This document shows, piece by piece, positions 112 through 60,960 of a stretch of 64,000 nt of DNA. The DNA is taken from positions 2,575,684 to 2,639,683 of the forward strand of contig OZ241345.1 in assembly GCA_965200175.1 (NCBI GenBank). The letters are read 5' to 3'. Numbering within the stretch: position 1 is the first letter of the stretch; every line of letters begins with the position of its first letter. The notes under the pieces were generated by a model. The model worked only from the letters and a program-made list of their open reading frames with translations. It had not been told where the DNA came from and did not search any database. The DNA is from Pseudomonadales bacterium (GTDB lineage Bacteria > Pseudomonadota > Gammaproteobacteria > Pseudomonadales > Azotimanducaceae). The translations under genes and the position numbers were made by a program.

Positions 112-170
112 GATCCGGCAAGGTTGGCGCCAATGGCTTTGACGGTTCCCGCAAACGAGGGCAGGCAAGC

Positions 171-1532: not shown

Positions 1533-1537
1533 CCGGC

Positions 1538-3804: not shown

Positions 3805-3811
3805 CCGCGGA

Positions 3812-8725: not shown

Positions 8726-8848
8726 GCGCCTCTCGCCCGAAGGGCGAGAGGCGGTTGGAGTTTCGCTGGCGCGAAACTCCGCGCGCTCGTCGCGTGGGTC
8801 AGGTTCCGACCCGACGGTTCGGGCCGATGTCCTACGGCCTGTCGGGCC
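8726..8848. repeat. Family A composite palindromic (REP/MITE-like) element
   Basis: Hairpin CCTCTCGCCC-GAA-GGGCGAGAGG, then GGAGTTTCGC-TGGC-GCGAAACTCC, then a GGTCAGGTTCCGA module. Intergenic. Confidence 0.8.
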
Positions 8849-14583: not shown

Positions 14584-14822
14584 GCGTTCGAGTTGCTTCG
14601 CAACTCGGCGCTGGAGACACGGAGACCGTTCGTCGGCAGGTCTGGCGACGGTGCGTTTGGGGTGCTCCGCAACTGCGCGAGCAAGCTCGCGTTCGAGTTG
14701 CTTCGCAACTCGGCGCTGGAGACACGGAGACCGTTCGTCGGCAGGTCTGGCGACGGTGCGTTTTGGGGTGCTCCGCAACTGCGCGAGCAAGCTCGCGTTC
14801 GAGTTGCTTCGCAACTCGGCGC
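14584..14822. repeat. Tandem repeat, 105-106 bp unit, about 2.3 copies, hairpin-rich
   Basis: The unit starts GCGTTCGAGTTGCTTCGCAACTCGGCGC at 14584, 14689 and 14795. It contains GAGTTGC-TTC-GCAACTC and GCGAGC-AA-GCTCGC inverted repeats. Confidence 0.9.
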
Positions 14823-14908
14823 AGGTGGCCGTGCCGGCGGCGATGGCCAGGATCTCCGCTTTTACGCAGCCCGCGCCTGGTCAGGCGCCGCGCTGTCCAG
14901 TCGCTCGA

Positions 14909-16390: not shown

Positions 16391-16475
16391 GCGCGACCTG
16401 ACGGTCGCGGATGGCGTTTCGCTGCGCGAAACTCCGCGCTCGTCGCGCAGGTCAGGTTCCGAGATGCTTCTGAGC
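16391..16475. repeat. Family A palindromic element
   Basis: CGCGACC-TGAC-GGTCGCG, then G(G)CGTTTCGC-TGC-GCGAAACTCC, then GGTCAGGTTCCGAGATGCTTCTGAGC. Confidence 0.8.
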
Positions 16476-21676: not shown

Positions 21677-22033
21677 ATGTCAAAGGACGCCTTGACCATC
21701 GGGGGAATGCTGCTCACTGGCATCATCGGGCTGGCCGGGCTGATGCTCCACCAGAGCGGGAACATATCCAAACTGCGCACCGAGATGCGCGAGGACATCG
21801 GCGAACTGCGCACCGAAGTGCGGAAGGACATCGAAGGGCTGCACACTGAAGTGAGCCAGGAGATCGGCGAACTGCGTTTGGAAATGCGGGCCGAGCTGGC
21901 GGAATTGCGCACCGAGAGCCGGGCTCAGTCAGGACAAATCAAGGAACTCCAGCAGCGGGTTGCGCGCGTCGAAGGCCTGCTGGAGGGACTTCGGCCCAAT
22001 CTGGCTTCCACCGCATCGCCCGAACAGCGGTGA
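21677..22033 (+). CDS. Small membrane-anchored protein with five or six 11-residue (hendecad) repeats
   Basis: N-terminal TM segment LTIGGMLLTGIIGLAGLMLH. Then ISKLRTEMRED/IGELRTEVRKD/IEGLHTEVSQE/IGELRLEMRAE/LAELRTESRAQ. Confidence 0.6.
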   Translation: MSKDALTIGGMLLTGIIGLAGLMLHQSGNISKLRTEMREDIGELRTEVRKDIEGLHTEVSQEIGELRLEMRAELAELRTESRAQSGQIKELQQRVARVEGLLEGLRPNLASTASPEQR

Positions 22034-29003: not shown

Positions 29004-29094
29004 GCGCGACCTGACGGTCGCGGATGGAGTTTCGCCTACGCGAAACTCCGCACTCGTCTCGTCGCCCAGGCCAGGTTCCGATATGTTTCTGAGC
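29004..29094. repeat. Family A palindromic element
   Basis: CGCGACC-TGAC-GGTCGCG, then GGAGTTTCGC-CTAC-GCGAAACTCC, then CCAGGTTCCGATATGTTTCTGAGC. Confidence 0.85.
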
Positions 29095-30825: not shown

Positions 30826-31014
30826 GCGCGCGGGCTTGGAAGCATATCGAACTTGGTTCACGCAACCGGTGCGGAGTTTCGCATCAGCGAAACTCCAACG
30901 CACCCGCGAGGCGGGGGCGCGGGCTCGGAAGCATATCGAACTTGGCTCAGGCAACGGGCGCGGAGTTTCGCGCAGCGAAACTCCAACCGCCTCTCGCCCT
31001 CAGGCGAGAGGCGC
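30826..31014. repeat. Family A palindromic elements, two tandem copies in inverted orientation
   Basis: GGAAGCATATCGAACTTGG ... GGAGTTTCGC-N-GCGAAACTCC occurs twice. It ends with CCTCTCGCCC-TCA-GGCGAGAGG. Confidence 0.85.
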
Positions 31015-35992: not shown

Positions 35993-36108
35993 GCGCACCC
36001 GCTTCGCGGGTGCGTTGGAGTTTCGCTGCGCGAAACTCTGCGCACGTTGCGCAAGTCAGATTCCGAGATGTTTCTGAGCCCGCACAAAGCGCGACCTGAC
36101 GGTCGCGC
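35993..36108. repeat. Family A palindromic element
   Basis: GCGCACCC-GCTTC-GCGGGTGCG, GGAGTTTCGC-TGC-GCGAAACTC, GTCAGATTCCGAGATGTTTCTGAGC, CGCGACC-TGAC-GGTCGCG. Confidence 0.85.
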
Positions 36109-37592: not shown

Positions 37593-39406
37593 GGCGCCTC
37601 CGCGCTGCGCCGCAAAACCATGTACTCCGCAAGACGCTCCTTTTCCTCGGCGGGATCCGCGCGCATCCGCTCCAAAAGCTGGGAGCGGCGACCGCGCTCG
37701 GCCAACGCCCGCAACCGCTCCAGCCCCTCCCGAAACTCGACCGCCAAGCCGTCCGCGTCAAGCATTGACGGGCGCTGATGGAGCCGCAGCATCTCGGCAT
37801 GGCCCTCCTGGCCTGACCAGCGGCCCAGGATTTGGGCGGCATCAGCCTCGGCGTGCGCGGCGGCGTAGCGGACCACCTCGGCAAACAGCGGGCTCTCCTG
37901 CCCATCCGCCAGCAGGTCAACATCGGCTGGAGTGAGTTCGGCGGCCAAGCCGGGCGATTTCAAAAGCAGCGACAGCAGCTGCACCGGCAGCCCATCGCGG
38001 CGCTGCCCTTGACGCCGTCTCCGGTGCGGGGCAAACCCCTCGCGCTCCCCGGCTGAAGGCTGCTCCATGCGAGGGGCAAACCCCTCGCGCTCCCCGGCTG
38101 AAGGCTCCAGTCGGGCCAGGGCTTGAACGGAGCCCGCATCCGCCCCGCCAACGCCGGTGAGCTCCTGCAGCCGGGCGCCCATCATCTGCCGCAACGGGCT
38201 GCCGGACGGCGCCCGCTGCACATAGGGGGCGGCTAGGTCGGCGAGCCGGGCGCGGTCGTCCAGGGCGCTCAGGTCGAGCCCCCGGGCCAATTCGGCAAAC
38301 AGATACTCAATGGCGGGGGTCGCCTTGCCGATGCGGCGGCGGAAGTCGTCCGCGCCCTGCCCGCGCACCAAGGTGTCCGGGTCTTCGCCGTCGGGCAGGA
38401 ACATGAACTTCAGCCGCCGTCCCCCATCCAAATGACCGAGCGCACCTTCCAACGCCTTCCAAGCGGCACGGCGCCCGGCGGCGTCGCCGTCAAAGCAGCA
38501 GATCACCTCGTCGGCATAGCGGTAGAGCTTGCGGTAGTGCTCCTCGCCCGTGGCGGTGCCCAAGGTGGCGACGACGTTGCGGATGCCGACCTGGGCCAAG
38601 GCGATGACGTCCAGATAGCCTTCCACCACAATCAGCGAATCGAGCTGACGCGAGAACTTGCGCGCTTCAAAGAGCCCGTAAAGCTCAAGGCTTTTGCGGA
38701 ACAGGGGCGTTTCCGGCGAGTTCAGGTACTTCGGCCCCTGGCCGTCGCCCAGCAGGCGGCCACCGAAGGCGATGACCCGGCCGCGCCCATCGCGCACCGG
38801 GAACATGATGCGCCCCCGAAAGCGGTCGTACTCGCGGCCGCGCTCGTTCCTGCCGATCAACCCGGCTTCAAGCAGCACCTTGGACGGTAGGGGACGGACG
38901 CCGCCGGCAAGCGCCTCGAGCAGCCCGTCCCAAGCATCCGGCGCAAAGCCAAGCTTGAACTCCGCGGCGATCTGGCCGGTCAGGCCGCGCCCCTTGAGAT
39001 AGTCGATCGCTTGCGGGGAGGTCTTGAGCTGCGCCTTGTAGAAGCCCTCCGCTGCGCTCATGGCCTCGAACAGCGGCGCCAGGTCGCGGGCCGGCGACTT
39101 AGACTGCGCGCGCGGCACCTCCATGCCCACGGAAGCCGCCAAGGACTCCACCGCCTCGGTGAACGAAAGCCCCTCGAACTCCTCAAGGAACTTGATGGCG
39201 TCGCCGCCCGCCCCGCAGCCGAAGCAGTAGTACATGTTCTTGGCTGGGCTGACGGTGAACGAAGGGGTCTTTTCGTCGTGGAAGGGGCACAGCCCTTGCA
39301 AGTCCTTCCCGCCCTTTTTGAGCGCCACGCGGCTGCCGATGACCGCCGCGATATCGACCCGATCCTGAAGCTCGTTGATGAAGGTCTTGGGAATCGAGTT
39401 GGCCAT
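37589..39406 (-). CDS. dnaG: DNA primase
   Basis: Zn-ribbon CPFHDEKTPSFTVSPAKNMYYCFGCGAGGD, a TOPRIM domain (VVEGYLDVIAL) and a C-terminal helicase-interaction region. Confidence 0.95.
   Translation of the reverse strand: MANSIPKTFINELQDRVDIAAVIGSRVALKKGGKDLQGLCPFHDEKTPSFTVSPAKNMYYCFGCGAGGDAIKFLEEFEGLSFTEAVESLAASVGMEVPRAQSKSPARDLAPLFEAMSAAEGFYKAQLKTSPQAIDYLKGRGLTGQIAAEFKLGFAPDAWDGLLEALAGGVRPLPSKVLLEAGLIGRNERGREYDRFRGRIMFPVRDGRGRVIAFGGRLLGDGQGPKYLNSPETPLFRKSLELYGLFEARKFSRQLDSLIVVEGYLDVIALAQVGIRNVVATLGTATGEEHYRKLYRYADEVICCFDGDAAGRRAAWKALEGALGHLDGGRRLKFMFLPDGEDPDTLVRGQGADDFRRRIGKATPAIEYLFAELARGLDLSALDDRARLADLAAPYVQRAPSGSPLRQMMGARLQELTGVGGADAGSVQALARLEPSAGEREGFAPRMEQPSAGEREGFAPHRRRRQGQRRDGLPVQLLSLLLKSPGLAAELTPADVDLLADGQESPLFAEVVRYAAAHAEADAAQILGRWSGQEGHAEMLRLHQRPSMLDADGLAVEFREGLERLRALAERGRRSQLLERMRADPAEEKERLAEYMVLRRSAEAP
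38033..38115. repeat. Family B palindromic repeat, 2 tandem copies (45-bp period) inside the dnaG coding sequence
   Basis: The minus strand reads CAGCCGGGGAGCGCGAGGGGTTTGCCCCTCGCATGGA twice. It translates in frame as PSAGEREGFAPRMEQ / PSAGEREGFAPHRRR. Confidence 0.85.
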
Positions 39407-39437: not shown

Positions 39438-39525
39438 CGCGCGACCTGTCGGTCGCGTTTGTGGTTTCGCCAACGCGAAACTAGGCACCGGTTGCGCGAG
39501 TCAGATTCCGAAATGTCTCCTCAGC
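39438..39525. repeat. Family A palindromic element (diverged)
   Basis: CGCGACC-TGTC-GGTCGCG, TGGTTTCGC-CAAC-GCGAAACTA, GTCAGATTCCGAAATGTCTCCTCAGC. Confidence 0.75.
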
Positions 39526-39547: not shown

Positions 39548-40560
39548 CTACGAGTCGAGCAGCCAAGCGAGCAGGGCGGTCGGCACCGCAGCGACTTCAG
39601 GGTCGGATAGGTCTGATTCAGACCGAGTGGCCACCACGCCCTGCCAGCGGGACGCCTTCAGGGTCAGGGCCTCGCGCCGCCAGCCGCCATCGACGTACTT
39701 GGACTCAAAGGCGGCGCCGCCGAACTGCGGGCCGACGAAGTCGATCTCCTTGCGCGATGCGGTGCGGTGATGCAGCACCTGGTCGTGTCCCACCAGCGTC
39801 CCCGGCGCGTCGCGCTCGATCGCACGGAGCAGCGCCAAGCCAAGCTGCTGTTGCGAAAGCCGCGAGAAATCGAGGTGCGTCCTAGGCGCAACGCGCTCGG
39901 AATCCAGGGTCAGATTGGCGTAGATGGGATCCATGAAGTAGAGCTTCGGTTGTGCGCCAAGTTTCGGTCTCAGGTTGTCCTCACGGTAGCAGGGCCAAAC
40001 GACGAATGCCTCACGCAGTTCGTCAAGGCGCCGCTTCAGAGTCGCTTGAGCAACGCCGGTGTCGTTGGCAAGGGATGCGATGTTGAGGGGCGAACAGACA
40101 TTCGCGGACAGTCGCCGCAGCAGGTCCGTGCTTTGCGTTTGGGACCAGTCCGCGCGACGGAAGGCGTCGCCGTGGATGACATCCACCAGACTCCGGCGCA
40201 GCGCCGACGGTTCCGAACGGGTGGCGACGTGTTGCGCGACCGCAGCAGGGAACCCACCGCAGCCGAGATAAGTCTCCCATGCACGGATCAACAGATCCTG
40301 CCATGGCGCAAGCTCGGGCAGGACTTGCCTGAGTTCGCCGTGCGTGAGATCCGCAACGCGATAAGGCTTGAGCGCAGGATGTAGAGCCCCCCTGGAATGA
40401 GATCGGCAAGCACATCGGCTTGATATCGGAACGGTGCGCGTTCCATTTCCCGCAGGTCCGGATCCCTTGCGGTCCAGCCTTCGGGGTCGCGCCACCAACG
40501 GTTGATCGCCGCCAGCGTCTGCTGTGCCTCTCCGCGCTTCATGGCTGTGACACTGCCCAA
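39548..40560 (-). pseudogene. Decayed COG1373-type ATPase gene (AAA plus DUF4143-like); P-loop region deleted and frameshifted
   Basis: The N-terminal piece (INRWWRDPEGW...LIPGGLYILR) stops where GPRRVGK would normally follow. The C-terminal piece (LKPYRVADLTHGEL...KLYFMDPIY...) continues in another frame. The combined length is about 70 codons too short. Confidence 0.6.
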
Positions 40561-40837
40561 AAGAGGAACACTTTACGCCAAGTGTGGTGGAAAATGCATA
40601 CCTAATCCGCCAGATGTTGAGGATTTTGCATGATTTGGAAGTAGGAGGCGCTACGGATGCGTCGGGCCGCAAACGGAAGGATCGAACCCCACCCATCAAA
40701 GGGGCCAATCCCGAGCCTTGGACTGCGTCGCGGTTGCCCATCGACAGCTTGATGGCCAGCGTGGCTTGGACCCGCGAGCGATCCCAAGCATGGTAGATTA
40801 GGCCGCATCGTCAACGGCGTTCGCAACGGGAGGCGCA

Positions 40838-41469: not shown

Positions 41470-42393
41470 ATGACCAACCGCATCCTGCTCACCGGCGCCA
41501 ACGGGCACCTCGGGCGATTGGTGATCCGTGCCGTGGCCGACGATGCCGACGCCCTCCCGGTTCGGGCCGTCGTCCGCTCCGAGAACGCCGCCCGAAGCCT
41601 CGACGACCTGCCGTCGCCGGAACGGCGCGAGGTCCGCATCATCGACTACCGGGACCGCACCGGCTTGGAGGCGGCGGCCCAAGGATGCGACGCCGCCATC
41701 CACCTCGTGGGCATCCTTAAAGCAACCCGGGCCAACCGCTACGAGAGTGCCCACGAGCAGCCGGCCGAGGCGCTCTCGGCGGCCTGCTCGGCGGCTGGGG
41801 TGGGGCGCATCGTCCACACCAGCATCCACGGCGCCGATCCCGCCTCCGGCAACGGCTGCCTGGCGTCGCGCGGACGCACCGACGACATTCTCCTGGCGTC
41901 GCCCGTGCCAGCGGTGATCCTACGCGTGCCGATGGTGCTGGGGCCAAGCGACATCGCCGCCGAAGCGTTGCGGCGCCAAGCCACGTCGGGTCGCGCGCGG
42001 CTGGTGCGTGGCGGCGCGGCCCTGCAGCAGCCCATCGCCGCCGCCGACGTGGTGGCGGCGCTGCTGGCCGCATGCCGTCCCGGCGCTCCCGCCGATGTCG
42101 TGTTGGAGCTGGCCGGCCCGGAGTCCCTGACCCACCGGGCGCTGGTCGAGCGCACCGCCCGCGTTCTCGGTCGCGAGGTCGCCTTCGCCAGCACCCCGAT
42201 GTTCGCCGCGCACGCCTTCGCTTGGCTCGCCGAGACGCTGTCCGCTGATCCGCCGCTCACCCGCGACATGCTCGAAGTGCTGGAGCAGGACGACGCGGTC
42301 GATCCCGAACCGGCAAGGCGGGCGCTTGGCATCGAACTCACTCCGCTGGACCGCGCTCTGCGCACCGCCTTCAACACGGAAGCCGCCCCATGA
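41470..42393 (+). CDS. NAD(P)-binding atypical SDR / NmrA-like protein
   Basis: N-terminal ILLTGANGHLG Rossmann motif. Confidence 0.75.
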   Translation: MTNRILLTGANGHLGRLVIRAVADDADALPVRAVVRSENAARSLDDLPSPERREVRIIDYRDRTGLEAAAQGCDAAIHLVGILKATRANRYESAHEQPAEALSAACSAAGVGRIVHTSIHGADPASGNGCLASRGRTDDILLASPVPAVILRVPMVLGPSDIAAEALRRQATSGRARLVRGGAALQQPIAAADVVAALLAACRPGAPADVVLELAGPESLTHRALVERTARVLGREVAFASTPMFAAHAFAWLAETLSADPPLTRDMLEVLEQDDAVDPEPARRALGIELTPLDRALRTAFNTEAAP

Positions 42394-43349
42394 CCGCCAC
42401 GACTCCCAACGACCGGCCCGCACCGCCCATTTGGCAGCGGGCGCTGCCTTGGCTGATCACGCTGGCCTGCTTCGCATGGCTCTACACCCGCATCGAGGGC
42501 GCCGCCGCCCGCCAAGGCCTGACGGCGGCGAGCTACCTGCTTGAGGTCTTCGCCAGCGTCTCCTGGGGAAGCTGGCTGGCGCTGATGATCCCCTACTCCG
42601 CCTTCTTCTTCCTGATCGACTCCACCGTGGTGTGGCGGGTGGTGTCCTGGTTCAACGCCCGGGTGCCCTGGACCGGCATCCTGCCCATTCGCGCCAGCGC
42701 CTACATCATCTCCATCGTCAACGAGCAGGTGGGCAAGGGCGCGATGGCGCTCTACCTGAACCGCCGGGACGGCGTTCCCGGCTGGGAGGTGGGCTCATCA
42801 ATGCTCTTCATCATGTTCTGCGAGCTGCTCTACCTCACCTTCTGGGCCAACGTCGGCTACGCGATGGCCGCCGACACCCTGCCCGCCCAGTTTGCCCTGG
42901 TGCCTTGGATCGGGGCCGGCGTGCTTGCGCTCTTCCTGCTCTGGGTGGCCTTCTTCCGGGGCCTCATCCCGGTGGGCGCAGCGCTGCGCGAACGGGCCAT
43001 CCTCAAGGCGTTCCGCGAAGCCTCGCCGCTGCGCTACCTCATCATCGGCGCCATCCGCTCCCCGGCCCTGCTCGGCGCGGTGGTGGTTTACACCTTGGCG
43101 CTGCGCCTGTTCGGCGTGGAAGCCTCGTTCCTGGACATGCTGGGCGTGCTGCCGGTGATCTTCTTCGCCGCGGCCATCCCCACCCCCATGCGCGCCGCCG
43201 CCATCACCATCTGGGTGGTGCTGTTCCCCGACAACGAAGCCCAGCTCTCGGCCTTCGGCCTGGTGATGCACAACTTCTTCATCTTCTTCAACGCGGCCAT
43301 CGGCCTGCTGTTCCTGCGGCGGGCGAATCGGGAGTTGGGGTTGGCGTAA
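42390..43349 (+). CDS. Flippase-like (UPF0104 / lysyl-PG synthase TM-region-like) membrane protein
   Basis: 319 aa with about 8 TM segments. The start overlaps the upstream stop (ATGA). Confidence 0.65.
   Translation: MTATTPNDRPAPPIWQRALPWLITLACFAWLYTRIEGAAARQGLTAASYLLEVFASVSWGSWLALMIPYSAFFFLIDSTVVWRVVSWFNARVPWTGILPIRASAYIISIVNEQVGKGAMALYLNRRDGVPGWEVGSSMLFIMFCELLYLTFWANVGYAMAADTLPAQFALVPWIGAGVLALFLLWVAFFRGLIPVGAALRERAILKAFREASPLRYLIIGAIRSPALLGAVVVYTLALRLFGVEASFLDMLGVLPVIFFAAAIPTPMRAAAITIWVVLFPDNEAQLSAFGLVMHNFFIFFNAAIGLLFLRRANRELGLA
43278..43349 (+). repeat. Direct repeat, left copy (the functional 3' end of the flippase-like gene)
   Basis: TTCATCTTCTTCAACGCGGCCATCGGCCTGCTGTTCCTGCGGCGGGCGAATCGGGAGTTGGGGTTGGCGTAA. 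By eye it differs from the copy at 46129-46200 only at a minority of positions. Confidence 0.85.
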
Positions 43350-43387
43350 AGGCGACCCCGGCAGTCTGTATGAACTGAGCCACCCCA

Positions 43388-43471
43388 GCCAGAGTCACAG
43401 CCAGAGTCGCAGCCAGAATCGCAGCCAGAGTCGCGGCCAGAGATGCGGCCAGAGATGCGGCCAGAGTCGCT
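43388..43471. repeat. 12-bp tandem repeat, 7 copies
   Basis: GCCAGAGTCACA GCCAGAGTCGCA GCCAGAATCGCA GCCAGAGTCGCG GCCAGAGATGCG GCCAGAGATGCG GCCAGAGTCGCT. Confidence 0.9.
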
Positions 43472-43491
43472 GGCGACCAGATCGTTCCGGT

Positions 43492-43821
43492 ATGACACTT
43501 ACGCTTGTGATCTCAAGCACGCATATTGGACGAACGATCACGACGGACTTCAGAAAGTTGAAATCCCGTTTGAGCGAGTACATCCGAATGGTGCGCGAAG
43601 GAACCAAATCGAAGGTCACATTTAATGGCGAGACCGGGGCGGAGAATCGCCCTCCTACGCTTCTAGCAGACCATCACATTGATCACGAGTTGAAGCTTCA
43701 GACGCAAGCTGGGAAAGTGCGTCTTGGTGCATGGAATCAACCGGAGGTGTACACCATCACCTCCGTGCAACTACCAGAAGGCGCCGCACCAACTCTGCTC
43801 AGTGAATCCAGGGGCGAGTGA
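43492..43821 (+). CDS. Phd/YefM/VapB-type antitoxin-like protein with no cognate toxin gene
   Basis: ITTDFRKLKSRLSEYIRMVREG...KVTFNGE resembles a Phd/YefM N-terminus. The C-terminal QAGKVRLG...LPEGAAPTLLSESRGE resembles the VapC-binding tail. The downstream space is taken by the convergent ImmA gene. Confidence 0.45.
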   Translation: MTLTLVISSTHIGRTITTDFRKLKSRLSEYIRMVREGTKSKVTFNGETGAENRPPTLLADHHIDHELKLQTQAGKVRLGAWNQPEVYTITSVQLPEGAAPTLLSESRGE

Positions 43822-44589
43822 CTAGGCTTCTAGGGCTATTCGCCGTTGTGCCTCTATTTGCTGCTGGTCGACATCGTCGATCAAGGCCAAGTTCCTCAAG
43901 TGCCGAAGGGTGGCCTCAAAGCCGGTATGTAATCGGCGCGCCACACGGTCCACTCCTTCTTCGGTTGCCAGAGAGCAATCCAACTCCACAACGCTTTGTT
44001 GAATAAGCGGTTCGGGCATAAGAAGCATCGCCGCAAAGGCATTCGCGCGCCTCTCGATACCGGCTGGCGCCCAAGGTCCACTGGCGATGGCCAAACGGCG
44101 GCCAACTTCACGGTCGTAAAGGACATGGCAGAGTTCATGCGCCAGGGTGAATCGACGCCCTTGCGAAGTCCCATTGAATAGATTGCCGCGATTCCACGCA
44201 ATTCCCGGTCTGTGCCCGGGTCCCGCAATTGCAACGCCCCTAACACTGGCGTCAGTCAACCACACTTCTTTGACTTCTATGCCCAATCGTTCAAGGAGGC
44301 CATCCACATCAACATACCTGCCGGTCAGGAAACGACCATCGAGTTGGTCATGAAGACGGTCAGCAAGATCGTATCCCTGTGACCAAGGAGCCAATGTCGC
44401 GATCATCGGCTCCGGGCGATCGTCTATCGTAGCCAACTCTGCGCTTGAACGATCCCCAGTCAGGCCGACAATAAGATTACAGAGCGTCACGATATCCTCG
44501 CTGGTCACCCGGGGAGCCAAGGAGCCAAACATCAGGGCCGCATGGCAGGAACCCTCAACGACCAGACTCGGATCGCCTTCATGGGCCAA
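43822..44589 (-). CDS. ImmA/IrrE family zinc metallopeptidase (COG2856-like)
   Basis: HEXXH motif FTLAHELCHVLYD plus the downstream ERRANAFAAMLLMP. The start is only a TTG, and the N-terminus may be truncated. Confidence 0.75.
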   Translation of the reverse strand: MAHEGDPSLVVEGSCHAALMFGSLAPRVTSEDIVTLCNLIVGLTGDRSSAELATIDDRPEPMIATLAPWSQGYDLADRLHDQLDGRFLTGRYVDVDGLLERLGIEVKEVWLTDASVRGVAIAGPGHRPGIAWNRGNLFNGTSQGRRFTLAHELCHVLYDREVGRRLAIASGPWAPAGIERRANAFAAMLLMPEPLIQQSVVELDCSLATEEGVDRVARRLHTGFEATLRHLRNLALIDDVDQQQIEAQRRIALEA

Positions 44590-44691
44590 CAGCTCTTCCT
44601 GCTACTCCATCGACAAGTTGCTTGAGATGCACTTGCGAACTCGCCGCCACCCGCCTCGGACGGTTTGGACATCAACGCCCAGCCGCGCCAG

Positions 44692-45387
44692 TCACATGTG
44701 CAGTTCGTGATTTCGCGGCCTGCGCAATCGGCCAATCGCCTGCGAGAGTTTGCGTATTCGACCGGAATCTGGCGCAACGGAAGTAAGATACTCAGAAGCC
44801 CCTTGAAGTATCTGATAGAGGGGCTCTGCAACAACCCGCGGACTTAGGGTTTCTGAGCTTGGTTGAGAAATATCGAAAACAACATGGTCCGGCGCACCGG
44901 CCACTTGCCCAGGACCCCACGACACTTCAATGGCATCACGAAGCCGACGAAACACAATATCCGGAAACACACCACCCTCGCGGGCAGCGCATAGAGCGTG
45001 GCGCGACCACCAATGCTGCCACGCGGCTTCTCGGCCATCCTCCTCTGACTCATCAATCGCGAACGGCGGAACAGGGTCGTTACGAAGTGCGCGCCAACCC
45101 GTGTCCTCTAGGCTGCGGCAAGGCAGGCGCTCCTCATGCAATAGGGGATCCCAATTCTGGGTAAACCACTCCAACAAGGGAAGCAGATACCAGTAAACGT
45201 GATCAACCCGCTCCGATTGCTCAAGGTGTGCGCAGAGGTTGACGCCACGAACCCAGATCTGAAAGCCGCCCCAAGAAATGGACTGCTCTGAGTCCGCGGC
45301 CTCACCACCATCGGGATCATCCAGAAACGCTATCCTTACTGCGAAACGGCTAGTGTCCCCAGCAAGACGTTCCCAACGAATCGCCAT
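44692..45387 (-). CDS. Hypothetical Trp-rich protein, unknown family
   Basis: ATG at 45387, 231 aa (MAIRWERLAGDTSRF...WYLLPLLEWFTQNWDPLL...). Starts 11 nt after the upstream small ORF. Confidence 0.55.
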   Translation of the reverse strand: MAIRWERLAGDTSRFAVRIAFLDDPDGGEAADSEQSISWGGFQIWVRGVNLCAHLEQSERVDHVYWYLLPLLEWFTQNWDPLLHEERLPCRSLEDTGWRALRNDPVPPFAIDESEEDGREAAWQHWWSRHALCAAREGGVFPDIVFRRLRDAIEVSWGPGQVAGAPDHVVFDISQPSSETLSPRVVAEPLYQILQGASEYLTSVAPDSGRIRKLSQAIGRLRRPRNHELHM

Positions 45388-45397
45388 CGAAAAACCC

Positions 45398-45694
45398 TCA
45401 GTGCCAATAGCGTCTGACGTTACGCCGCGACACAGTTCGGTCGGCCTTCCACTGCTGGACAACTGAAGTGGGAACCTCTTTCCAAGCCACCGGATAGCCG
45501 TGCCAAAGGTCACCCTCGGATCGCTGCGCGCAATACGCCCGCCCATCGTGGGTCGCGTATCGCTTGTTGTCGTGCAAAGCGCTCCCCCGCAGGAGTTCGT
45601 CGGCGAATGGCCGCACCTCCGGCGGGCAAAGACTGCCTCGCCGACCACGTTGCCACGGCTCGGAGTGCTTGGGGTTGCTCCTGTACTCCATCAT
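45398..45694 (-). CDS. Small basic protein with a WHGYP motif, unknown family
   Basis: 98 aa: MMEYRSNPKHSEPWQRGRRGSLCP...GRAYCAQRSEGDLWHGYPVAWKEVP... Confidence 0.5.
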   Translation of the reverse strand: MMEYRSNPKHSEPWQRGRRGSLCPPEVRPFADELLRGSALHDNKRYATHDGRAYCAQRSEGDLWHGYPVAWKEVPTSVVQQWKADRTVSRRNVRRYWH

Positions 45695-46128
45695 TGCACC
45701 GTCAAGGTGAGCGGGAATAGTCAGTAATGCTCTCACGACAGTCAAGAGACTGCGCACCCGCTTTGCGGGAGCGGTTGACGAGCTGATCGAATCACCGTCA
45801 AAGCCGTCGCCAACGATAGGACTTACCGCCTACCGCCGAAGTCTCTGCACCGATTGCGGGCCACGCCATGGGGAGCGCTGCGAGCCGGTTGCTATGCCGG
45901 GGTCGCCACCAAGAAGCCCATCGGAGGCGGTGTGCGGCGATACTGGAATACCTGCTAGCCACGCGGCGGATGCTACGCTGTGGTTCAACTTCATTCGCTA
46001 ACACTGCCTGAGCCTGCACGGCTTAGCCTCAACGCCAAGGTGAGGTGGAGTAGATGGTCTCCAAGCCGAGGTGTCCGCCCTCAAAGCCACACAGATGAGA
46101 TAATGACCCTTGGCGATTGCGCAACTGT

Positions 46129-46200
46129 TTCATATTCTTCGATCACGCCATCGGCCTGCCGTTCCTGCGGCGGGCCGATCGGGAGTTGGGGTTGGCTTGA
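46129..46200 (+). repeat. Direct repeat, right copy (orphan diverged copy of the flippase-like gene 3' end)
   Basis: TTCATATTCTTCGATCACGCCATCGGCCTGCCGTTCCTGCGGCGGGCCGATCGGGAGTTGGGGTTGGCTTGA. Confidence 0.85.
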
Positions 46201-46209
46201 GGTCGGGAC

Positions 46210-47910
46210 ATGAAGAGCACCGCCTACTACGACCAGAACGCTGATGCGCTAGTTGATCAGTATGGCGCGCTGAATGCCGATGCCGTGCATCAGGCTTGGG
46301 CTCGCAAACATCTTCCGAAGGAACCGGGCTTCGCCTGTGACATTGGTGCAGGGACCGGGCGCGACGCCAACTGGTTGGCGCAGCAGGGTTGGGAAGTGGT
46401 CGCCGTCGAACCCAGCGCGATGCGCGACAAAGCTGCCTCAACGACCCACCCAAGGGTGACTTGGCTTAATGACGCCTTGCCCGGCTTGACTGCCCTCCGG
46501 GCGCTCGGTCGAAGATTCGACCTGATTCTGCTAAGCGCAGTTTGGATGCATGTCGCGCCCAAGGAGCGGGAAAGAGCGTTCCGCATCCTGTCCGAACTGC
46601 TCAATCCATCGGGTCTGTTGGTGATCACCCTGCGCAAGGGCGGGGACGAACGTGAAAGCGAGGATCGCGGCTTTCATCCCACTTCCGCTGACGAATTGAC
46701 TGGCTACGCGAATCGGCGGGCCGTCGCGTACAAGGGCCGTAGCGAAGCTGACGATCTTGTGCGCGGCCATGTGCGTTGGCAAACGCTGGTGTTTGAAATG
46801 CCGGATGACGGCACCGGCAGCCTGCCCTTGCTGCGCCACGTCATCGTCAACGACAACAAGTCGTCCACCTACAAACTGGGCTTGTTGCGGGTGCTGGTGC
46901 GAATAGCGGAAAGCGCTCCGGGCATCGTCGTTGCGCGCACCGATGACTATGTGGACATTCCCTTCGGCGTGGTCGGCCTGTACTGGATCAATCAGTACCG
47001 GCGCTTGGTGGCTCGGAACGTTCCCCAACTGCCAGGCCACAGGACGGGCTATGGTTGGGCCAAGGGCGCGTTTTATCAGCTAATGAAGGAAATCTCCCCT
47101 TCGGACCTGCGGCTCGGCACACGCTTCAACGCCGATCGGGGGGAAGTGGTAACCCGCGCCATTGCCGACGCATGCCACAACATCAAGGCAATGCCGGCCA
47201 AGCACATCACTTACCCCGGATCGCCCGACCAACCGGTCTTCGAGTGCGACTTGAAACCGGTTCGCGGACCAAGGAAGCACGTTGTCCTGTCGAAGGAGTT
47301 TCTGACCCAGTTCGGCCGGTTTCGGATACGGGGCCCGCTTTGGCAGACGCTCGGGCAATACGCCTGCTGGCTGGATCCGGTAATCGTTAGGGAATGGTCT
47401 CAGATGATGACGGGTTGGGGTGTATCGGACGTGGGAAACCAGGAACGCTTGGCCCTGGACTGGCAGGAAGGCACCCGCGACACCAAGGTGGCTATCGAAC
47501 GCGCAGAGGCATTGCGGCATGAAGGATTCGACCTAACCTGCGTTTGGTCAGCCTCCCGGATCAGGTCGTCCTTCCAAATCGATCACTGCTTTCCTTGGGC
47601 AAGGTGGTGCAACAATGACTTGTGGAATCTGCTCCCGACCAAGGTGGACATCAACCGCCGAAAGCTCGACAAGCTGCCTTCCTCGTTAGCCATGTCCGAC
47701 GCTCGCACGCGCATCATCGATTGGTGGAGCGAGGCTTGGGAACGCTCGGCGCAGTCCGAGCGGTTCTTCATGGAGGCGGGATACTCCCTGCCCGGTCTTT
47801 CCAGCGACCGTCCATCATTGGATGAAATCTACCAAGCGACATTGCACCAACGGGCACGGCTCAAGCAGGATCAACAGCTTGTGGAGTGGTCCCTATCGGG
47901 ACTTGGATAG
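46210..47910 (+). CDS. Fusion protein: class I SAM-dependent methyltransferase, winged-helix-like middle region, C-terminal HNH endonuclease
   Basis: Motif I CDIGAGTGRDANWLAQQGWEVVAVEP with post-I/II blocks (DLILLSAVWMH, LLNPSGLLVI). Middle STYKLGLLRVLVRIAE. C-terminal QIDHCFPWARWCNNDLWNLLPTKVDINRRKLDKLP (HNH/HNN). Confidence 0.7.
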   Translation: MKSTAYYDQNADALVDQYGALNADAVHQAWARKHLPKEPGFACDIGAGTGRDANWLAQQGWEVVAVEPSAMRDKAASTTHPRVTWLNDALPGLTALRALGRRFDLILLSAVWMHVAPKERERAFRILSELLNPSGLLVITLRKGGDERESEDRGFHPTSADELTGYANRRAVAYKGRSEADDLVRGHVRWQTLVFEMPDDGTGSLPLLRHVIVNDNKSSTYKLGLLRVLVRIAESAPGIVVARTDDYVDIPFGVVGLYWINQYRRLVARNVPQLPGHRTGYGWAKGAFYQLMKEISPSDLRLGTRFNADRGEVVTRAIADACHNIKAMPAKHITYPGSPDQPVFECDLKPVRGPRKHVVLSKEFLTQFGRFRIRGPLWQTLGQYACWLDPVIVREWSQMMTGWGVSDVGNQERLALDWQEGTRDTKVAIERAEALRHEGFDLTCVWSASRIRSSFQIDHCFPWARWCNNDLWNLLPTKVDINRRKLDKLPSSLAMSDARTRIIDWWSEAWERSAQSERFFMEAGYSLPGLSSDRPSLDEIYQATLHQRARLKQDQQLVEWSLSGLG

Positions 47911-47942
47911 CCGCTTGCCCGCGCAACCTTGGCTCACTCCCC

Positions 47943-48707
47943 CTACCAACCCCGATGCCCCACCGGCGGCGGATCCTCCGGAGGTCCCGCGAAGCACTGG
48001 GCAATGGCCATCCAGGACCTGGCGGCGTCGCCGACGACGGTGAGGCTGGTCTCGGCGATGTTGCGCCCTTGGGTGACCACATGGGCGAACTCGACGGCGG
48101 AGCCGCGCACGCAATCGGCGTCGGAGGGCTCGTTCCACTCCCACACCGCGCCAGAGGGTGATTCGAGCCGCACGTAGGGTGCCGGCGACGGGGCCTCGAG
48201 GCCGCGGTTAACGAACGTCCAGCCGAAGGTGCGCACGCCGATGTGGCACACGTTGCGGATGCGGTCGCTGTTGCGGCGCTGCGCGCGCAGCAGGTCGTAG
48301 ATATCCTGGCCGTGCGCCCAGGTCTCCATTTGCCGTGCGGTGGCCATCATGGCGATGCCCATGTCCGGCCCGAACCAAGGGGCGCGCAGCGCTGGGTCCG
48401 CTGCATCAAGGGCGTCGCAGAGTTGGGTAAAGTATGAACGCCAGCGATCCAGCAGCGGTCGGCCTTCCAGCGGCTCGGGGTTGGCCGGAATCCCGGCACC
48501 CAGGCCGTCCCGCCATTCCCGGAAGCCGTCCGGATCGATCACCGAGTGCACCGCCCAGCGGTCAGCGTCGTGCAGGTGCTGCACCACCCAGTTGACCGTG
48601 CGGCCCTTGAAGGGCGTCTTAAGCGACCACTGATCGTCGCTTAAGGTGTCTAGGAACGAGAAAAGCTCCGCGCCTTCCTCGCGCAGGTCGTTAACTTGTT
48701 GGTTCAT
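47943..48707 (-). CDS. DinB/maleylpyruvate-isomerase-N-terminal-like metal-binding protein (TIGR03084-like)
   Basis: 254 aa with an N-terminal four-helix DinB-like pattern (EGAELFSFLDTLSDDQWSLKTPFKGRTVNWVVQHLH). Confidence 0.55.
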   Translation of the reverse strand: MNQQVNDLREEGAELFSFLDTLSDDQWSLKTPFKGRTVNWVVQHLHDADRWAVHSVIDPDGFREWRDGLGAGIPANPEPLEGRPLLDRWRSYFTQLCDALDAADPALRAPWFGPDMGIAMMATARQMETWAHGQDIYDLLRAQRRNSDRIRNVCHIGVRTFGWTFVNRGLEAPSPAPYVRLESPSGAVWEWNEPSDADCVRGSAVEFAHVVTQGRNIAETSLTVVGDAARSWMAIAQCFAGPPEDPPPVGHRGW

Positions 48708-60757: not shown

Positions 60758-60891
60758 CGGTTCACTTCCATCGTTTCAAGCCCTCCAAAGCGGCGCCTGC
60801 CACCCGTCGATTCACTGCCATGCCGCCATCCCCCCAACGCGCCGAGGCTGACGCCAGCCCAACTCCGACCCGAACCGACATGCGCCCCAAC

Positions 60892-60960
60892 GCGCGGAGT
60901 TTGGCGTCAGCCAAACTCCAATGCGAGCCGAAGCGCACCTTCGGTGCGCTTCGGCTCGCA
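60892..60960. repeat. Family A-related palindromic element
   Basis: GGAGTTTGGC-GTCA-GCCAAACTCC followed by GCGAGCCGAAGCGCACC-TTC-GGTGCGCTTCGGCTCGC. Confidence 0.7.

What the first reader, a model, noticed from the sequence alone, without database searches (positions are those of the whole stretch)
46210..47910. Single-polypeptide fusion of a small-molecule-type SAM methyltransferase, a winged-helix-like module and an HNH nuclease
Seen:
- A 566-aa ORF in the AT-richer patch.
- The N-terminal ~150 aa carry class I methyltransferase motifs (DIGAGTGRD, DLILLSAVWMH).
- No DPPY/NPPY motif and no C5-MTase motifs are present.
- The middle region contains STYKLGLLRVLVRIAE, like the DNA-binding helices seen in modification-dependent restriction enzymes.
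- The C-terminus has a clear HNH/HNN motif (DHCFPW...NDLWNLLP...N..K).

Inference:
- A nuclease fused to a non-canonical methyltransferase in an accessory locus suggests a one-protein defence or self/non-self module.
- I cannot assign it to a named restriction or defence family.
- Its ATG lies 10 nt after the orphan gene-end copy at 46129-46200, so it travelled with, or sat next to, that junction.
Basis: partly seen in the sequence, partly recalled or inferred. Interest (0 to 1): 0.65.

Follow-up and report, generated by a model that had tools for sequence, protein, structure and literature searches.

The report
Methyltransferase fused to HNH nuclease unit
This is a real, horizontally acquired gene for an unstudied but widespread three-part protein (a small-molecule-type SAM methyltransferase, a domain of unknown fold and a Cas9-type HNH nuclease) that usually sits among anti-phage genes, so it is a good candidate for a new one-protein defence nuclease controlled by a metabolite-binding domain.

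Summary
ORF 46210..47910 (+, 566 aa) encodes a class I SAM methyltransferase (aa 1-197), a confidently modelled domain (aa 198-440) with no Pfam, PDB or viral fold match, and a Cas9-type HNH nuclease (aa 441-495) followed by helices. No DNA-methyltransferase motifs are present.

It belongs to a large unnamed family: more than 1,500 clusters and at least 562 species genomes, also on plasmids, not in phages. SAM-binding, pocket and HNH catalytic residues are conserved in 84-100% of a non-redundant set.

Two new points:
- Middle + HNH is an autonomous unit. It exists alone as a ~385-aa, mostly cyanobacterial family (hhalign 99.9%).
- The methyltransferase is a recruited copy of a small free-standing family that is also found fused to a GNAT. 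It is not a DNA methyltransferase.

There is no conserved partner gene. Flanks are hypervariable and enriched in restriction, toxin-antitoxin, CBASS, Zorya-like and IS genes. The gene has foreign GC3, sits at a variable junction and is a pseudogene in a relative.

Best reading: a stand-alone defence nuclease licensed by a SAM/ligand-binding methyltransferase domain. Function and mechanism are inferred, not shown. The "winged-helix" label is unverified.

The parts
46210..47910 (+). Complete gene for the 566-aa methyltransferase / unknown-fold domain / HNH fusion protein (stop codon 47908-47910)
   Evidence: ORF listing; more than 1,500 full-length homologues; one intact ORF in 79 of 80 species-representative loci
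46210..46800 (+). aa 1-197: class I SAM-dependent methyltransferase domain of the TehB/NodS-like small-molecule type. Motif I is D44-x-G46-x-G48-x-G50-R51-D52; other conserved positions are E67, D88, D104 and the 'AVWMH' segment 110-114
   Evidence: Pfam; Foldseek top hits NodS, TehB, RdmB, UbiG; PDB profile search; 39-42% identity, with the same pocket residues, to a free-standing 197-aa methyltransferase and to a methyltransferase-GNAT fusion; per-site conservation
46801..47529 (+). aa 198-440: family-specific alpha/beta domain of unknown fold. It begins with the most conserved segment of the protein, PDDGTGxLPxLRxxIxNDxKSxTYKLxLLR (R209, D215, K217, Y221 and K222 are near-invariant)
   Evidence: AF2 model with pLDDT 93.6 and pTM 0.92; no Pfam hit even at E<=10; no PDB or BFVD Foldseek hit; no PDB sequence or profile hit; conservation; homologous to the N-terminal part of the stand-alone ~385-aa HNH family
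47530..47694 (+). aa 441-495: Cas9-type HNH (HNH_4) nuclease core with D458-H459 ... N473 ... N482 ... K485
   Evidence: Pfam HNH_4 at 27.9-30.7 bits, cut-off 22; Foldseek matches to isolated Cas9 HNH domains, probability 0.97-0.99; D458 47/49, H459 45/49, N473 46/49, N482 46/49 in the non-redundant set
47695..47907 (+). aa 496-566: C-terminal helical extension of the nuclease unit (W505-W506, F519, 'HQRARLKQDQQ')
   Evidence: AF2 helices; alignments A1 and A2; aligned only as far as about aa 506 with the sister family
46199..46202 (+). GAGG, a Shine-Dalgarno-like motif 7 nt upstream of the ATG
   Evidence: Read directly from the sequence. No sigma-70-like promoter was found at 45600-48200
46118..46205 (+). 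Displaced ('orphan') copy of the 3' end of the membrane-protein gene, ending 4 nt before the ATG. It marks the right border of a 2.85-kb insertion
   Evidence: Direct repeat D5, 82% identity over 88 nt; reading frame and stop retained; also recognisable upstream of the homologue in L007
43267..43354 (+). The matching repeat copy: the functional 3' end of membrane-protein gene 42390..43349, forming the left border of the insertion
   Evidence: syntenic with L001 up to window position 43347
43355..46117 (.). Inserted islet with lower GC between the two repeat copies. It is not part of the fusion gene but defines the variable junction. It carries an M78/CapP-like peptidase gene (43822..44589, -), an unknown ORF (44692..45648, -) and a 119-aa NsnC-C-terminus-like ORF (45398..45757, -)
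   Evidence: GC3 0.54-0.57; absent from the syntenic locus L001, which has a different 1.2-kb segment there

Best explanation
The gene encodes a self-contained, horizontally mobile nuclease enzyme built from two pre-existing units.

1. An autonomous nuclease unit (aa ~198-566). It consists of a family-specific alpha/beta domain that starts with the K-x-x-[ST]-Y-K-L-x-L-L-R helix, then a Cas9-type HNH active site. This unit also exists on its own as a ~385-aa protein family.
2. An N-terminal copy (aa 1-197) of a small, free-standing, TehB/NodS-like SAM-dependent methyltransferase.

Most likely it is a one-protein defence module against phages or mobile elements. The HNH domain is the effector that cuts nucleic acid, and the family-specific domain positions it on the substrate. 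The methyltransferase domain binds SAM (and probably a small ligand in its conserved pocket) and licenses or restrains the nuclease through the extremely conserved inter-domain junction. The logic is therefore 'metabolite or SAM-gated nuclease', not classical methyl-marking of host DNA.

**Shown here:** domain identities; conservation of the SAM-binding, pocket and HNH catalytic residues; autonomy of the nuclease unit; origin of the methyltransferase domain; absence of a partner gene; foreign composition, patchy distribution and recurrent decay; frequent defence or mobile-element neighbours.

**Inferred:** that the substrate is DNA; that the role is defence; that SAM or a ligand controls the nuclease.
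For: **Architecture.** Pfam methyltransferase and HNH_4. The AF2 model of aa 200-566 has pLDDT 93.6. Foldseek matches Cas9 HNH domains with probability 0.97-0.99.

**Catalytic competence.**
- HNH: D458 47/49, H459 45/49, N473 46/49, N482 46/49.
- SAM contacts: G46 49/49, E/D67 49/49, D88 46/49.
- Pocket: D104 45, W112 46, H114 45, Y7 43 (all of 49).

**Autonomous nuclease unit.** hhalign against the ~385-aa family gives probability 99.9%, E 5e-33, with aa 207-506 aligned.

**Methyltransferase is a recruited small-molecule enzyme.**
- It is 39-42% identical, with the same pocket residues, to a free-standing 197-aa Azospirillum methyltransferase in a housekeeping context and to a Streptomyces methyltransferase-GNAT fusion.
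- Structural and profile neighbours are NodS, TehB, UbiG, glycine and phosphoethanolamine methyltransferases.
- There is no DPPY, PCQ or ENV motif.

**Coupling.** The junction aa 198-218 is the most conserved segment (0.57 mean pairwise identity, against 0.24-0.45 elsewhere). The middle domain is not hypervariable.

**Single-gene unit.** No flanking family occurs in more than 12 of 80 loci. The 148 nearest neighbours fall into 119 clusters.

**Defence or mobile-element context.**
- TIR, NOV_C and transposases.
- Toxin-antitoxin pairs, SBD-HNH and DUF4143.
- Zorya-like genes, SbcCD-like genes, DUF3427 helicase and Mrr.
- CBASS, M78-HTH and ScoMcrA_N-HNH.
- C5 methyltransferase and FRG.
- McrBC-like genes, VapBC, HNH, UvrD and IS21 on a 40-kb plasmid.
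- The recurrent neighbour families are HNH_2, type IV restriction enzymes, C5 methyltransferases, SLFN helicase and BrxL.

**Mobility and turnover.**
- GC3 0.716 against 0.83-0.93 for the flanks.
- About 60% identity between Gammaproteobacteria, Gemmatimonadota and Latescibacterota.
- Plasmid copies exist.
- A pseudogene in L002, and methyltransferase-only or N-terminally decayed remnants elsewhere.
Against: - No experiment or paper covers this family. The defence role rests on guilt by association, and I could not compute a genome-wide defence score.
- Some homologues lie among ordinary metabolic genes (L007). Many nearest neighbours are housekeeping genes such as PhyH, an antiporter, GSDH and EAL.
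- Conservation of the methyltransferase pocket suggests real catalysis on some substrate, which a pure 'SAM sensor' would not need.
- Nothing shows that the two halves communicate. The full-length AF2 model is poor at the junction and gives no reliable inter-domain geometry (pTM 0.47).
- The nucleic-acid substrate (DNA or RNA) and any sequence or modification specificity are unknown.
- No phage trigger or counter-defence is known.
Confidence: 0.5

Rival explanations
1. It is a true single-chain restriction-modification enzyme (type IIG/IIC-like). The methyltransferase domain puts a non-canonical methyl mark on host nucleic acid at sites chosen by the middle domain, and the HNH domain cuts unmarked incoming DNA.
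For: - A methyltransferase, a putative targeting domain and a nuclease share one chain, with no partner needed.
- The context is a defence island.
- Decay products that keep only the methyltransferase half recur, as with orphan methylases after loss of a restriction gene (P0275 and P0283 end at the domain junction; L002).
- The methyltransferase pocket residues are under purifying selection, which suggests catalysis.
Against: - There is no (D/N/S)PP(Y/F/W) motif and no PCQ or ENV motif.
- The nearest relatives are small-molecule methyltransferases. These include a 197-aa free-standing enzyme and a GNAT fusion with the same pocket, and neither has any DNA-binding part.
- The putative target-recognition domain is as conserved as the catalytic domains and almost gap-free, unlike the hypervariable recognition domains of R-M enzymes.
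- The nuclease unit exists widely without any methyltransferase, and no methyltransferase is adjacent in the contexts seen.
- N-terminal fragments are what any truncating mutation would leave behind, so the remnant pattern is weak evidence.
Confidence: 0.17
2. It is a guard against phage SAM-degrading counter-defence, which is a specific form of the gated-nuclease idea. The SAM-bound methyltransferase domain keeps the HNH off. When a phage SAM lyase or hydrolase depletes SAM, the apo protein becomes an indiscriminate nuclease, giving abortive infection.
For: - The SAM-contact residues are the most conserved positions of the methyltransferase domain: G46 49/49, E/D67 49/49, D52 47/49, D88 46/49.
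- The inter-domain junction is the most conserved segment.
- The gene is self-contained and has no self/non-self marker.
- Phage SAM lyases are an established anti-RM and anti-BREX strategy (own knowledge; also discussed in PMC11842806, listed).
Against: - This is purely inferential. No known defence system senses SAM loss, and none turned up in the literature searches.
- The non-SAM pocket residues (Y7, Y18, H27, W112, H114, R153) are conserved too, and are shared with free-standing enzymes. That points to a second ligand or to true catalysis.
Confidence: 0.15
3. It is a selfish element and not a host defence. It would be a free-standing homing-type HNH endonuclease or an addiction module that promotes its own spread or retention, with the methyltransferase protecting the carrier.
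For: - Distribution is patchy and cross-phylum identity is very high.
- The gene sits at a junction with a duplicated gene end, and the ~80 nt upstream travels with the gene into a different context in L007.
- Copies lie on plasmids and next to IS elements.
- Decay is frequent.
Against: - There is no common insertion target. The 148 nearest neighbours form 119 clusters and no upstream sequence is conserved beyond close relatives.
- The gene is absent from 50,697 phage genomes, where free-standing HNH homing genes abound.
- It is syntenic and apparently vertically kept between the window and L001.
- At 566 aa, with a conserved metabolite-type methyltransferase, it is atypical for homing endonucleases.
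Confidence: 0.08
4. It is a nucleic-acid processing or repair enzyme with a cellular role, for example RNA or tRNA cleavage plus methylation. It would not be an immune or selfish element.
For: - There is weak similarity of the methyltransferase domain to tRNA methyltransferases (PHROG 4752, E 3e-7; CmoM among fold and profile hits).
- Some loci are surrounded by metabolic genes.
- Sequence conservation is very strong.
Against: - It is present in only about 0.3% of species-representative genomes (at least 562 of 185,579, a lower bound) with no phylogenetic coherence.
- Flanks are hypervariable and codon composition is foreign.
- It is a pseudogene in a close relative that keeps both flanking genes.
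- No curated family hit reaches threshold.
Confidence: 0.07

Closest known systems
Type IIG / IIC single-chain restriction-modification enzymes (e.g. the MmeI and Eco57I class)
   Same: One polypeptide carries a SAM-binding methyltransferase fold, a nuclease and a putative targeting domain. It needs no partner gene. SAM is bound and, in those enzymes, often needed for cleavage (own knowledge). It occurs among defence genes.
   Different: - Their methyltransferase is a DNA amino-methyltransferase with an NPPY-type motif and a hypervariable target-recognition domain. Here the motif is absent.
- Here the domain is a recruited small-molecule methyltransferase.
- The middle domain is conserved, not hypervariable.
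- The nuclease here is a Cas9-type HNH at the C-terminus, not an N-terminal PD-(D/E)XK.
Type IV modification-dependent HNH restriction enzymes (McrA, ScoMcrA SBD/SRA-HNH, EVE-HNH, wH-HNH)
   Same: An N-terminal non-catalytic domain is followed by an HNH nuclease. They are single-gene and live in defence islands. ScoMcrA-like genes are among the most recurrent neighbours of this family.
   Different: - No known reader domain (SBD, SRA, EVE/PUA, DpnI-type wH) is detectable. Pfam finds none, hhalign against an SBD-HNH neighbour gives probability 0.3%, and Foldseek finds none.
- The HNH is of the HNH_4 (Cas9) type, not HNH_2.
- These enzymes carry no methyltransferase.
Unnamed ~385-aa 'HNH endonuclease domain-containing protein' family (e.g. 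Nostoc sp. C052 WP_256875451.1)
   Same: It is truly homologous over aa ~207-506 (hhalign 99.9%, E 5e-33). It has the same signature helix and the same HNH_4 core, and its context is also plasmid-borne and defence-like.
   Different: It lacks the methyltransferase domain entirely, shares only about 21-23% identity, is mostly cyanobacterial, and is equally uncharacterised.
Shedu (SduA) and similar single-protein immune nucleases with variable N-terminal sensor domains
   Same: The design principle is shared: an autonomous nuclease core whose activity is proposed to be controlled by an N-terminal accessory domain, encoded by a single gene (concept from bioRxiv 10.1101/2023.08.10.552793, listed).
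   Different: There is no homology. Shedu has a PD-(D/E)XK/DUF4263 core, whereas this protein has an HNH core, and PADLOC gave no Shedu hit. This is an analogy only.
TehB / NodS-like small class I methyltransferases
   Same: The fold, the size (~197 aa) and the SAM motifs match. They are the best structural matches, and close free-standing relatives exist at 39% identity.
   Different: The scores are far below the equivalog cut-offs (TehB 23.8 bits against 218). The substrate is unknown. Here the domain is covalently joined to a nuclease unit.
MADS mad2 (the PADLOC hit)
   Same: The PADLOC mad2 model matches aa 22-146 (E 2.3e-13).
   Different: The match covers only the generic Rossmann core. 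The MADS profiles were built from HHpred/PDB alignments, and MAD2 is flagged as prone to cross-hits. MADS is an 8-gene operon, and no such neighbours occur here.

Membership tests
Pfam HNH_4 (Cas9-type HNH nucleases) | Profile score above the gathering threshold | tested here: met
   27.9 bits on the full protein and 30.7 bits on the C-terminal fragment, against a cut-off of 22
Pfam HNH_4 (Cas9-type HNH nucleases) | beta-beta-alpha-metal fold with D-H ... N ... N catalytic residues | tested here: met
   Foldseek matches isolated Geo and Nme Cas9 HNH domains with probability 0.97-0.99. D458, H459, N473 and N482 are conserved in 45-47 of 49 non-redundant sequences
Class I SAM-dependent methyltransferases (small-molecule type) | Rossmann fold with motif I (D/E)xGxGxG, an acidic residue at the end of beta2 and motif III/IV acids | tested here: met
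   Pfam Methyltransf_23/12/25/11 above cut-offs. D44, G46, G48, G50, E67, D88 and D104 are conserved. Fold matches are NodS, TehB and UbiG
TehB (tellurite methyltransferase) equivalog | NCBIfam or Pfam score above the curated cut-off | tested here: not met
   NF008405 scores 23.8 bits against 218. Pfam TehB scores 18.4 bits against 20.4
DNA amino-methyltransferases (m6A/m4C) of R-M systems | Catalytic motif IV (D/N/S)PP(Y/F/W) | tested here: not met
   The regex search finds none, and there is no 'PP' anywhere in the protein
DNA C5-cytosine methyltransferases | PCQ and ENV motifs; a PF00145 match | tested here: not met
   No motif and no PF00145 hit
Type IIG/IIC single-chain R-M enzymes | Hypervariable target-recognition domain | tested here: not met
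   The middle domain has mean pairwise identity 0.33-0.41 with 2% gaps, comparable to the methyltransferase domain (0.38) and the HNH (0.45)
Type IIG/IIC single-chain R-M enzymes | Methylation of host DNA that blocks the enzyme's own cleavage | not testable with these tools
   This needs methylome sequencing or biochemistry
Type IV modification-dependent HNH enzymes (McrA/ScoMcrA class) | A recognised modification-reader domain (SBD, SRA, EVE/PUA, DpnI-type wH) N-terminal to the HNH | tested here: not met
   No Pfam hit at E<=10. hhalign against a ScoMcrA-SBD protein gives probability 0.3%. Foldseek against PDB and BFVD matches only the HNH part
MADS (mad1-8) | Multi-gene operon in which MAD6-8 are mandatory | tested here: not met
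   Only a partial mad2 hit over the generic methyltransferase core. There are no conserved neighbours.
Known defence systems in PADLOC-DB v2.0.0 | Full-length match to any system protein | tested here: not met
   Only the mad2 partial hit and sub-threshold Cas9 HNH hits
Unnamed middle+HNH nuclease-unit superfamily (this family plus the ~385-aa cyanobacterial family) | Signature N-terminal helix (D/H)-x-K-x-x-[ST]-Y-K-[LI]-x-L-L-R, followed by an alpha/beta domain and an HNH_4 core, alignable end to end | tested here: met
   hhalign probability 99.9%, E 5e-33, 294 columns. The motif is present in 80 of 80 loci
Defence-island-associated gene (operational criterion) | Statistical enrichment next to known defence genes across genomes | tested here: inconclusive
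   7 of 8 annotated contexts are defence or mobile-element rich (and the window itself, against L007). The recurrent neighbour families are defence-type. No background-corrected statistic could be computed

The most novel reading that the evidence does not exclude
This is a new class of one-protein immune nuclease. A recruited small-molecule methyltransferase acts as a metabolic sensor or licensing domain, reading SAM or a methyl-acceptor metabolite. For example, it could detect phage SAM-degrading counter-defence, or methylate a phage-derived small molecule. It would switch an autonomous HNH nuclease unit whose targeting domain has a previously undescribed fold. This would link cellular methyl-donor status directly to nucleic-acid destruction.
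Probability: 0.2. Interest if true: 0.85.

Novelty: new variant of a known kind. Interest (0 to 1): 0.6.

Why it matters
If the family is a defence system, it would add a compact single-gene module of about 1.7 kb with an unusual control principle: a metabolite-type SAM methyltransferase wired to a Cas9-type HNH nuclease.

It would also give a function to two large 'hypothetical' families:
- this fusion, found in at least 562 species genomes and more than 1,500 protein clusters;
- its ~385-aa relatives that lack the methyltransferase.

The ~240-aa middle domain is modelled with very high confidence, yet it matches nothing in the PDB or in viral structure predictions, so it is a candidate new nucleic-acid-binding fold.

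The system is directly testable. Homologues exist in cultured strains (Haliea salexigens DSM 19537, Marinobacter spp., Roseomonas, Azospirillum, S. fredii NGR234), and clear point mutants are available for each module.

The annotation 'class I SAM-dependent methyltransferase' currently hides the nuclease half of these proteins in public databases.

Tried and rejected
- **MADS membership.** The PADLOC mad2 hit covers only the generic methyltransferase core. The MADS HMMs were built from PDB/HHpred alignments and MAD2 is a known cross-hitter. Rejected.
- **Sulfur-binding (phosphorothioate reader) identity of the middle domain.** I considered this because ScoMcrA-like genes recur as neighbours. 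hhalign gives probability 0.3%. Rejected as homology; the neighbour recurrence remains unexplained.
- **Winged-helix or known reader fold for the middle domain.** Nothing came from Pfam at E<=10, PDB phmmer or profile search, or Foldseek against PDB and BFVD. Only the top 50 Foldseek rows are visible and I could not submit the domain alone, so a weak wH-like sub-structure cannot be excluded.
- **Alternative architectures without the methyltransferase inside this family.** Most short hits are truncated gene calls or decayed copies. P0135 in L013 has homology upstream of its start, interrupted by stops.
- **A conserved partner gene or operon.** None was found.
- **A conserved upstream regulatory sequence or RNA across 80 loci.** None was found beyond the close relative. 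No promoter-like site was found either.
- **Phage-borne copies.** None.
- **Literature.** Six full-text searches and five papers read turned up no description of this fusion.
- **First full-length AF2 model.** Its junction and HNH region were poor (pLDDT below 50), so it was not used for inter-domain inference.


Full report
**1.

The ORF 46210..47910 (+) of 566 aa exists. It lies in a patch of lower G+C: 0.57-0.60 at 43-48 kb against about 0.67 around it. The protein has no (D/N/S)PP(Y/F/W), PCQ or ENV motif.

Pfam places a class I SAM methyltransferase at aa 21-142 (Methyltransf_23/12/25/11, E 4e-13 to 2e-10). It places an HNH_4 domain at aa 452-490 (27.9 bits, cut-off 22) and nothing in between, even at E<=10. 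The gene is real and not a chance ORF: more than 1,500 protein clusters match it end to end at 58-93% identity.

**2. Anatomy**

A first full-length AlphaFold model was good only for the methyltransferase domain. Its Foldseek neighbours are small-molecule methyltransferases (NodS, TehB, RdmB, UbiG), not DNA methyltransferases.

A second model of aa 200-566, built on a 61-sequence alignment spanning 26-94% identity, is excellent: pLDDT 93.6, pTM 0.92. Its only structural matches in the PDB and in the viral BFVD library are HNH domains, best of all the isolated HNH domains of Cas9 (probability 0.97-0.99).

The ~240 residues between the methyltransferase and the HNH core (aa 198-440) match nothing:
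- nothing by Foldseek;
- nothing by PDB sequence or profile search;
- nothing by Pfam;
- nothing against a ScoMcrA sulfur-binding-domain protein (hhalign probability 0.3%).

The quoted helix is instead the signature of this domain.

**3. Conservation**

I used a non-redundant set of 49 sequences, each less than 60% identical to the others. All three modules are under purifying selection.

| Module | Positions (conserved out of 49) |
|---|---|
| SAM contacts | G46 49, E/D67 49, D52 47, D88 46 |
| Methyltransferase pocket | D104 45, W112 46, H114 45, Y7 43, Y18 41 |
| Signature helix | R209 48, D215 47, K217 48, Y221 48, K222 49 |
| HNH core | D458 47, H459 45, N473 46, N482 46, K485 45 |

The best-conserved stretch of the whole protein is the junction between the methyltransferase and the next domain: aa 198-218 at 0.57 mean pairwise identity, against 0.24-0.45 elsewhere. 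The middle domain is as conserved as the catalytic domains and nearly gap-free, so it is not a hypervariable target-recognition domain. Of the 80 best species-representative loci, 79 carry one intact ORF with the motifs.

**4. Two findings that change the picture**

*First, the 'middle + HNH' part is an autonomous evolutionary unit.* A distant plasmid hit in Nostoc (H13) led to a family of at least 1,013 clusters. These proteins are ~380-395 aa, mostly cyanobacterial, and annotated only as 'HNH endonuclease domain-containing protein'. They start with the same helix (ILKHDxKVTSYKIALLRAIND) and align with aa ~207-506 of our protein at hhalign probability 99.9%, E 5e-33. They also sit among defence-like genes: NERD-UvrD, PRTase, DUF429, SNase, HsdM, DUF262 and HNH. 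Apparent forms lacking the methyltransferase inside our own family are truncated calls or decayed copies.

*Second, the methyltransferase domain is a recruited copy of a small free-standing enzyme family.* It is 39% identical to a 197-aa Azospirillum brasilense methyltransferase that lies between clpB and a cytochrome oxidase assembly gene. It is 42% identical to the N-terminal half of a Streptomyces methyltransferase-GNAT fusion. All the conserved pocket residues are retained in both (Y7, Y18, H27, R51-D52, E67, W85, D88, D104, 'AVWMH', R142, R153). An enzyme that works alone at 197 aa, or fused to an acetyltransferase, is a small-molecule modifier and not a sequence-specific DNA methyltransferase.

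**5. Distribution, mobility and context**

Most are marine Gammaproteobacteria (Halieaceae, Marinobacter, Pseudohongiella, Alcanivorax, Ectothiorhodospiraceae). Gemmatimonadota, Latescibacterota and Bacteroidota are also represented, at about 60% identity across phyla. Nine full-length copies lie on plasmids of Roseomonas, Sphingobium, Azospirillum, Pseudoalteromonas and S. fredii NGR234. None lies in 50,697 phage genomes. Public names are only 'class I SAM-dependent methyltransferase'.

There is no conserved partner gene. No flanking ORF family occurs in more than 12 of 80 loci, and the 148 nearest neighbours form 119 clusters at 50% identity.

The annotated contexts are mostly defence or mobile-element islands:
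- TIR, NOV_C and transposases;
- toxin-antitoxin pairs, an overlapping ScoMcrA-type SBD-HNH gene and DUF4143;
- Zorya-like genes, SbcCD-like genes, NUDIX, a DUF3427 helicase and Mrr;
- CBASS, HTH-M78 and ScoMcrA_N-HNH;
- a C5 methyltransferase and FRG;
- McrBC-like genes, VapBC, HNH, UvrD and IS21 on a 40-kb plasmid.

One context is purely metabolic. Among the 119 neighbour clusters the recurrent families are HNH_2, PLD-helicase-DUF3427 type IV enzymes, C5 methylases, SLFN helicases, Macro, NUDIX, BrxL and HipA, alongside ordinary metabolic genes. This is enrichment, but I could not compute a background-corrected statistic.

**6. The local junction**

The 88-nt repeat 43267-43354 / 46118-46205 (82% identity) brackets a 2.85-kb islet. 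The islet has GC3 of 0.54-0.57 and carries an M78/CapP-like peptidase and two unknown ORFs. The left copy is the working 3' end of membrane-protein gene 42390..43349. The right copy is a displaced end that keeps the frame and the stop codon, and the fusion gene's ATG follows 9 nt after that stop.

Three related loci clarify the history:
- The close relative L001 is syntenic on both sides but has a different 1.2-kb filler.
- L002 has two copies of the gene end and only a pseudogene of the fusion, with an early stop, frameshifts and an 832-nt internal deletion.
- In L007, whose flanks are unrelated, the ~80 nt upstream of the ATG still aligns with the orphan copy.

So the gene did 'sit next to, and partly travel with' that junction. 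Its own GC3 (0.716 against 0.83-0.93 for the flanks) marks it as an older acquisition than the islet.

**7. Interpretation**

The evidence best fits a stand-alone nuclease enzyme assembled from an autonomous HNH unit and a small-molecule-type SAM methyltransferase, maintained and exchanged like a defence gene.

I favour a 'licensed nuclease' mechanism. The HNH is the effector and the family-specific domain engages the nucleic acid. The methyltransferase domain, with SAM and probably a small ligand, controls the nuclease through the ultra-conserved junction.

A classical single-chain R-M reading is weakened by four observations:
- the DNA-methyltransferase motifs are missing;
- the domain originates from a small-molecule enzyme family;
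- the middle domain is conserved and not hypervariable;
- the nuclease unit exists widely with no methyltransferase.

It is not excluded, because the pocket looks catalytically competent and methyltransferase-only remnants recur. A SAM-depletion guard, a selfish element and a cellular RNA/DNA-processing role are further rivals. None of the mechanistic steps is demonstrated.

**8. Novelty**

Neither the defence-profile library (PADLOC 2.0.0), NCBIfam, PHROGs nor the literature searches describe this fusion. The PADLOC mad2 hit is a generic-fold cross-match.

The parts are of known kinds (a class I methyltransferase and a Cas9-type HNH), and single-gene nuclease defences are known. What is new is the combination with a metabolite-type methyltransferase and a domain of unrecognised fold. 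I therefore rate it a new variant of a known kind, of solid but not exceptional interest until function is shown.

Noticed in passing
window 43355-46117: A 2.85-kb islet with lower GC (GC3 0.54-0.57) is bracketed by the duplicated gene end. It carries an M78/IrrE-type peptidase (43822..44589, -; PADLOC CapP E 2e-16 and RmrA hits), an unknown ORF (44692..45648, -; no hits anywhere) and a 119-aa ORF (45398..45757, -) that matches the C-terminus of Menshen NsnC (E 9e-8). No integrase is present. It looks like a decayed defence or prophage remnant.
   Followed up: partly
window 39548-40741 (-): The ORF has a DUF4143 domain and PADLOC PDC-S01 hits (E 1e-10), but no AAA_14 ATPase part was detected. 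It is possibly an N-terminally degenerate copy of the AAA_14/DUF4143 candidate defence ATPase. An intact AAA_14+DUF4143 gene also lies near the homologue in L009.
   Followed up: no
window 8751-8785, 16391-16475, 29004-29094, 30828-30990, 35993-36079, 39439-39519, 60891-60921: A dispersed family of REP-like palindromic repeats built around GGAGTTTCGC...GCGAAACTCC occurs as direct and inverted copies in intergenic positions (D2, D3, D8-D10, I2-I4, I8, I13, I15).
   Followed up: no
window 13400-13512 and 38028-38124: A second palindromic repeat family (GGGGCTTACCCCTCGC... / ...GCGAGGGGCAAACCCC) is present as 45-nt tandem pairs at two sites 24.6 kb apart, in inverted orientation (D12, D13, I1, I7, I10).
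   Followed up: no
window 14584-14825: Near-perfect (98-99%) tandem duplication with a ~105-nt period (D6, D7). There is also a 33-nt-period repeat of 5 units at 21740-21922, probably a coding heptad-like repeat (D1).
   Followed up: no
L002 (Ca. Azophilus lithoversatilis JAQAJJ010000043) 1-4936: The same chromosomal junction carries two copies of the membrane-gene 3' end (1-205 and 2041-2458) and a pseudogenised fusion gene. The site downstream of this membrane-protein gene is therefore a recurrent insertion hotspot in this lineage.
   Followed up: partly
L095 6019-7200 (Nostoc sp. C052 plasmid pC052_G); P0287-P0406: A large, uncharacterised ~385-aa family consists of the unknown-fold domain plus HNH_4 without a methyltransferase. 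It is mostly cyanobacterial and often plasmid-borne. In Nostoc it overlaps the stop of a 79-aa ORF and lies beside HNH and DUF262 genes.
   Followed up: partly
L102 4965-6095 (Streptomyces sp. NBC_00984 plasmid) and L101 4983-5576 (Azospirillum brasilense p2): The same methyltransferase clade occurs free-standing (197 aa, housekeeping context) and fused to a GNAT acetyltransferase (376 aa). Its substrate is unknown.
   Followed up: partly
L009/L015 9683-10654, L011 11267-11890, and 4 of 119 neighbour clusters: ScoMcrA-type (phosphorothioate-sensing SBD or ScoMcrA_N) HNH_2 nucleases are among the most recurrent immediate neighbours of the fusion gene. In one case the neighbour overlaps the fusion gene's stop codon. 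It is unclear whether this is coincidence within defence islands or a functional link.
   Followed up: partly
L010, L049, L073, L074, L083 and others (12 of 80 loci): A ~1,030-1,090-aa PLD + SF2 helicase + DUF3427 protein (PADLOC type IV mREase) lies directly next to the fusion gene in Halieaceae and Marinobacter genomes, on either side of it.
   Followed up: no
protein cluster of P0019 (P0275, P0276, P0279-P0285): Many 217-222-aa methyltransferase-only remnants end exactly at the EMP|DDGTG domain junction, on contigs up to 3.5 Mb. Two different endings exist (…EMPKVGFRT and …LVLSKVI), which suggests at least two independent losses of the nuclease half.
   Followed up: partly
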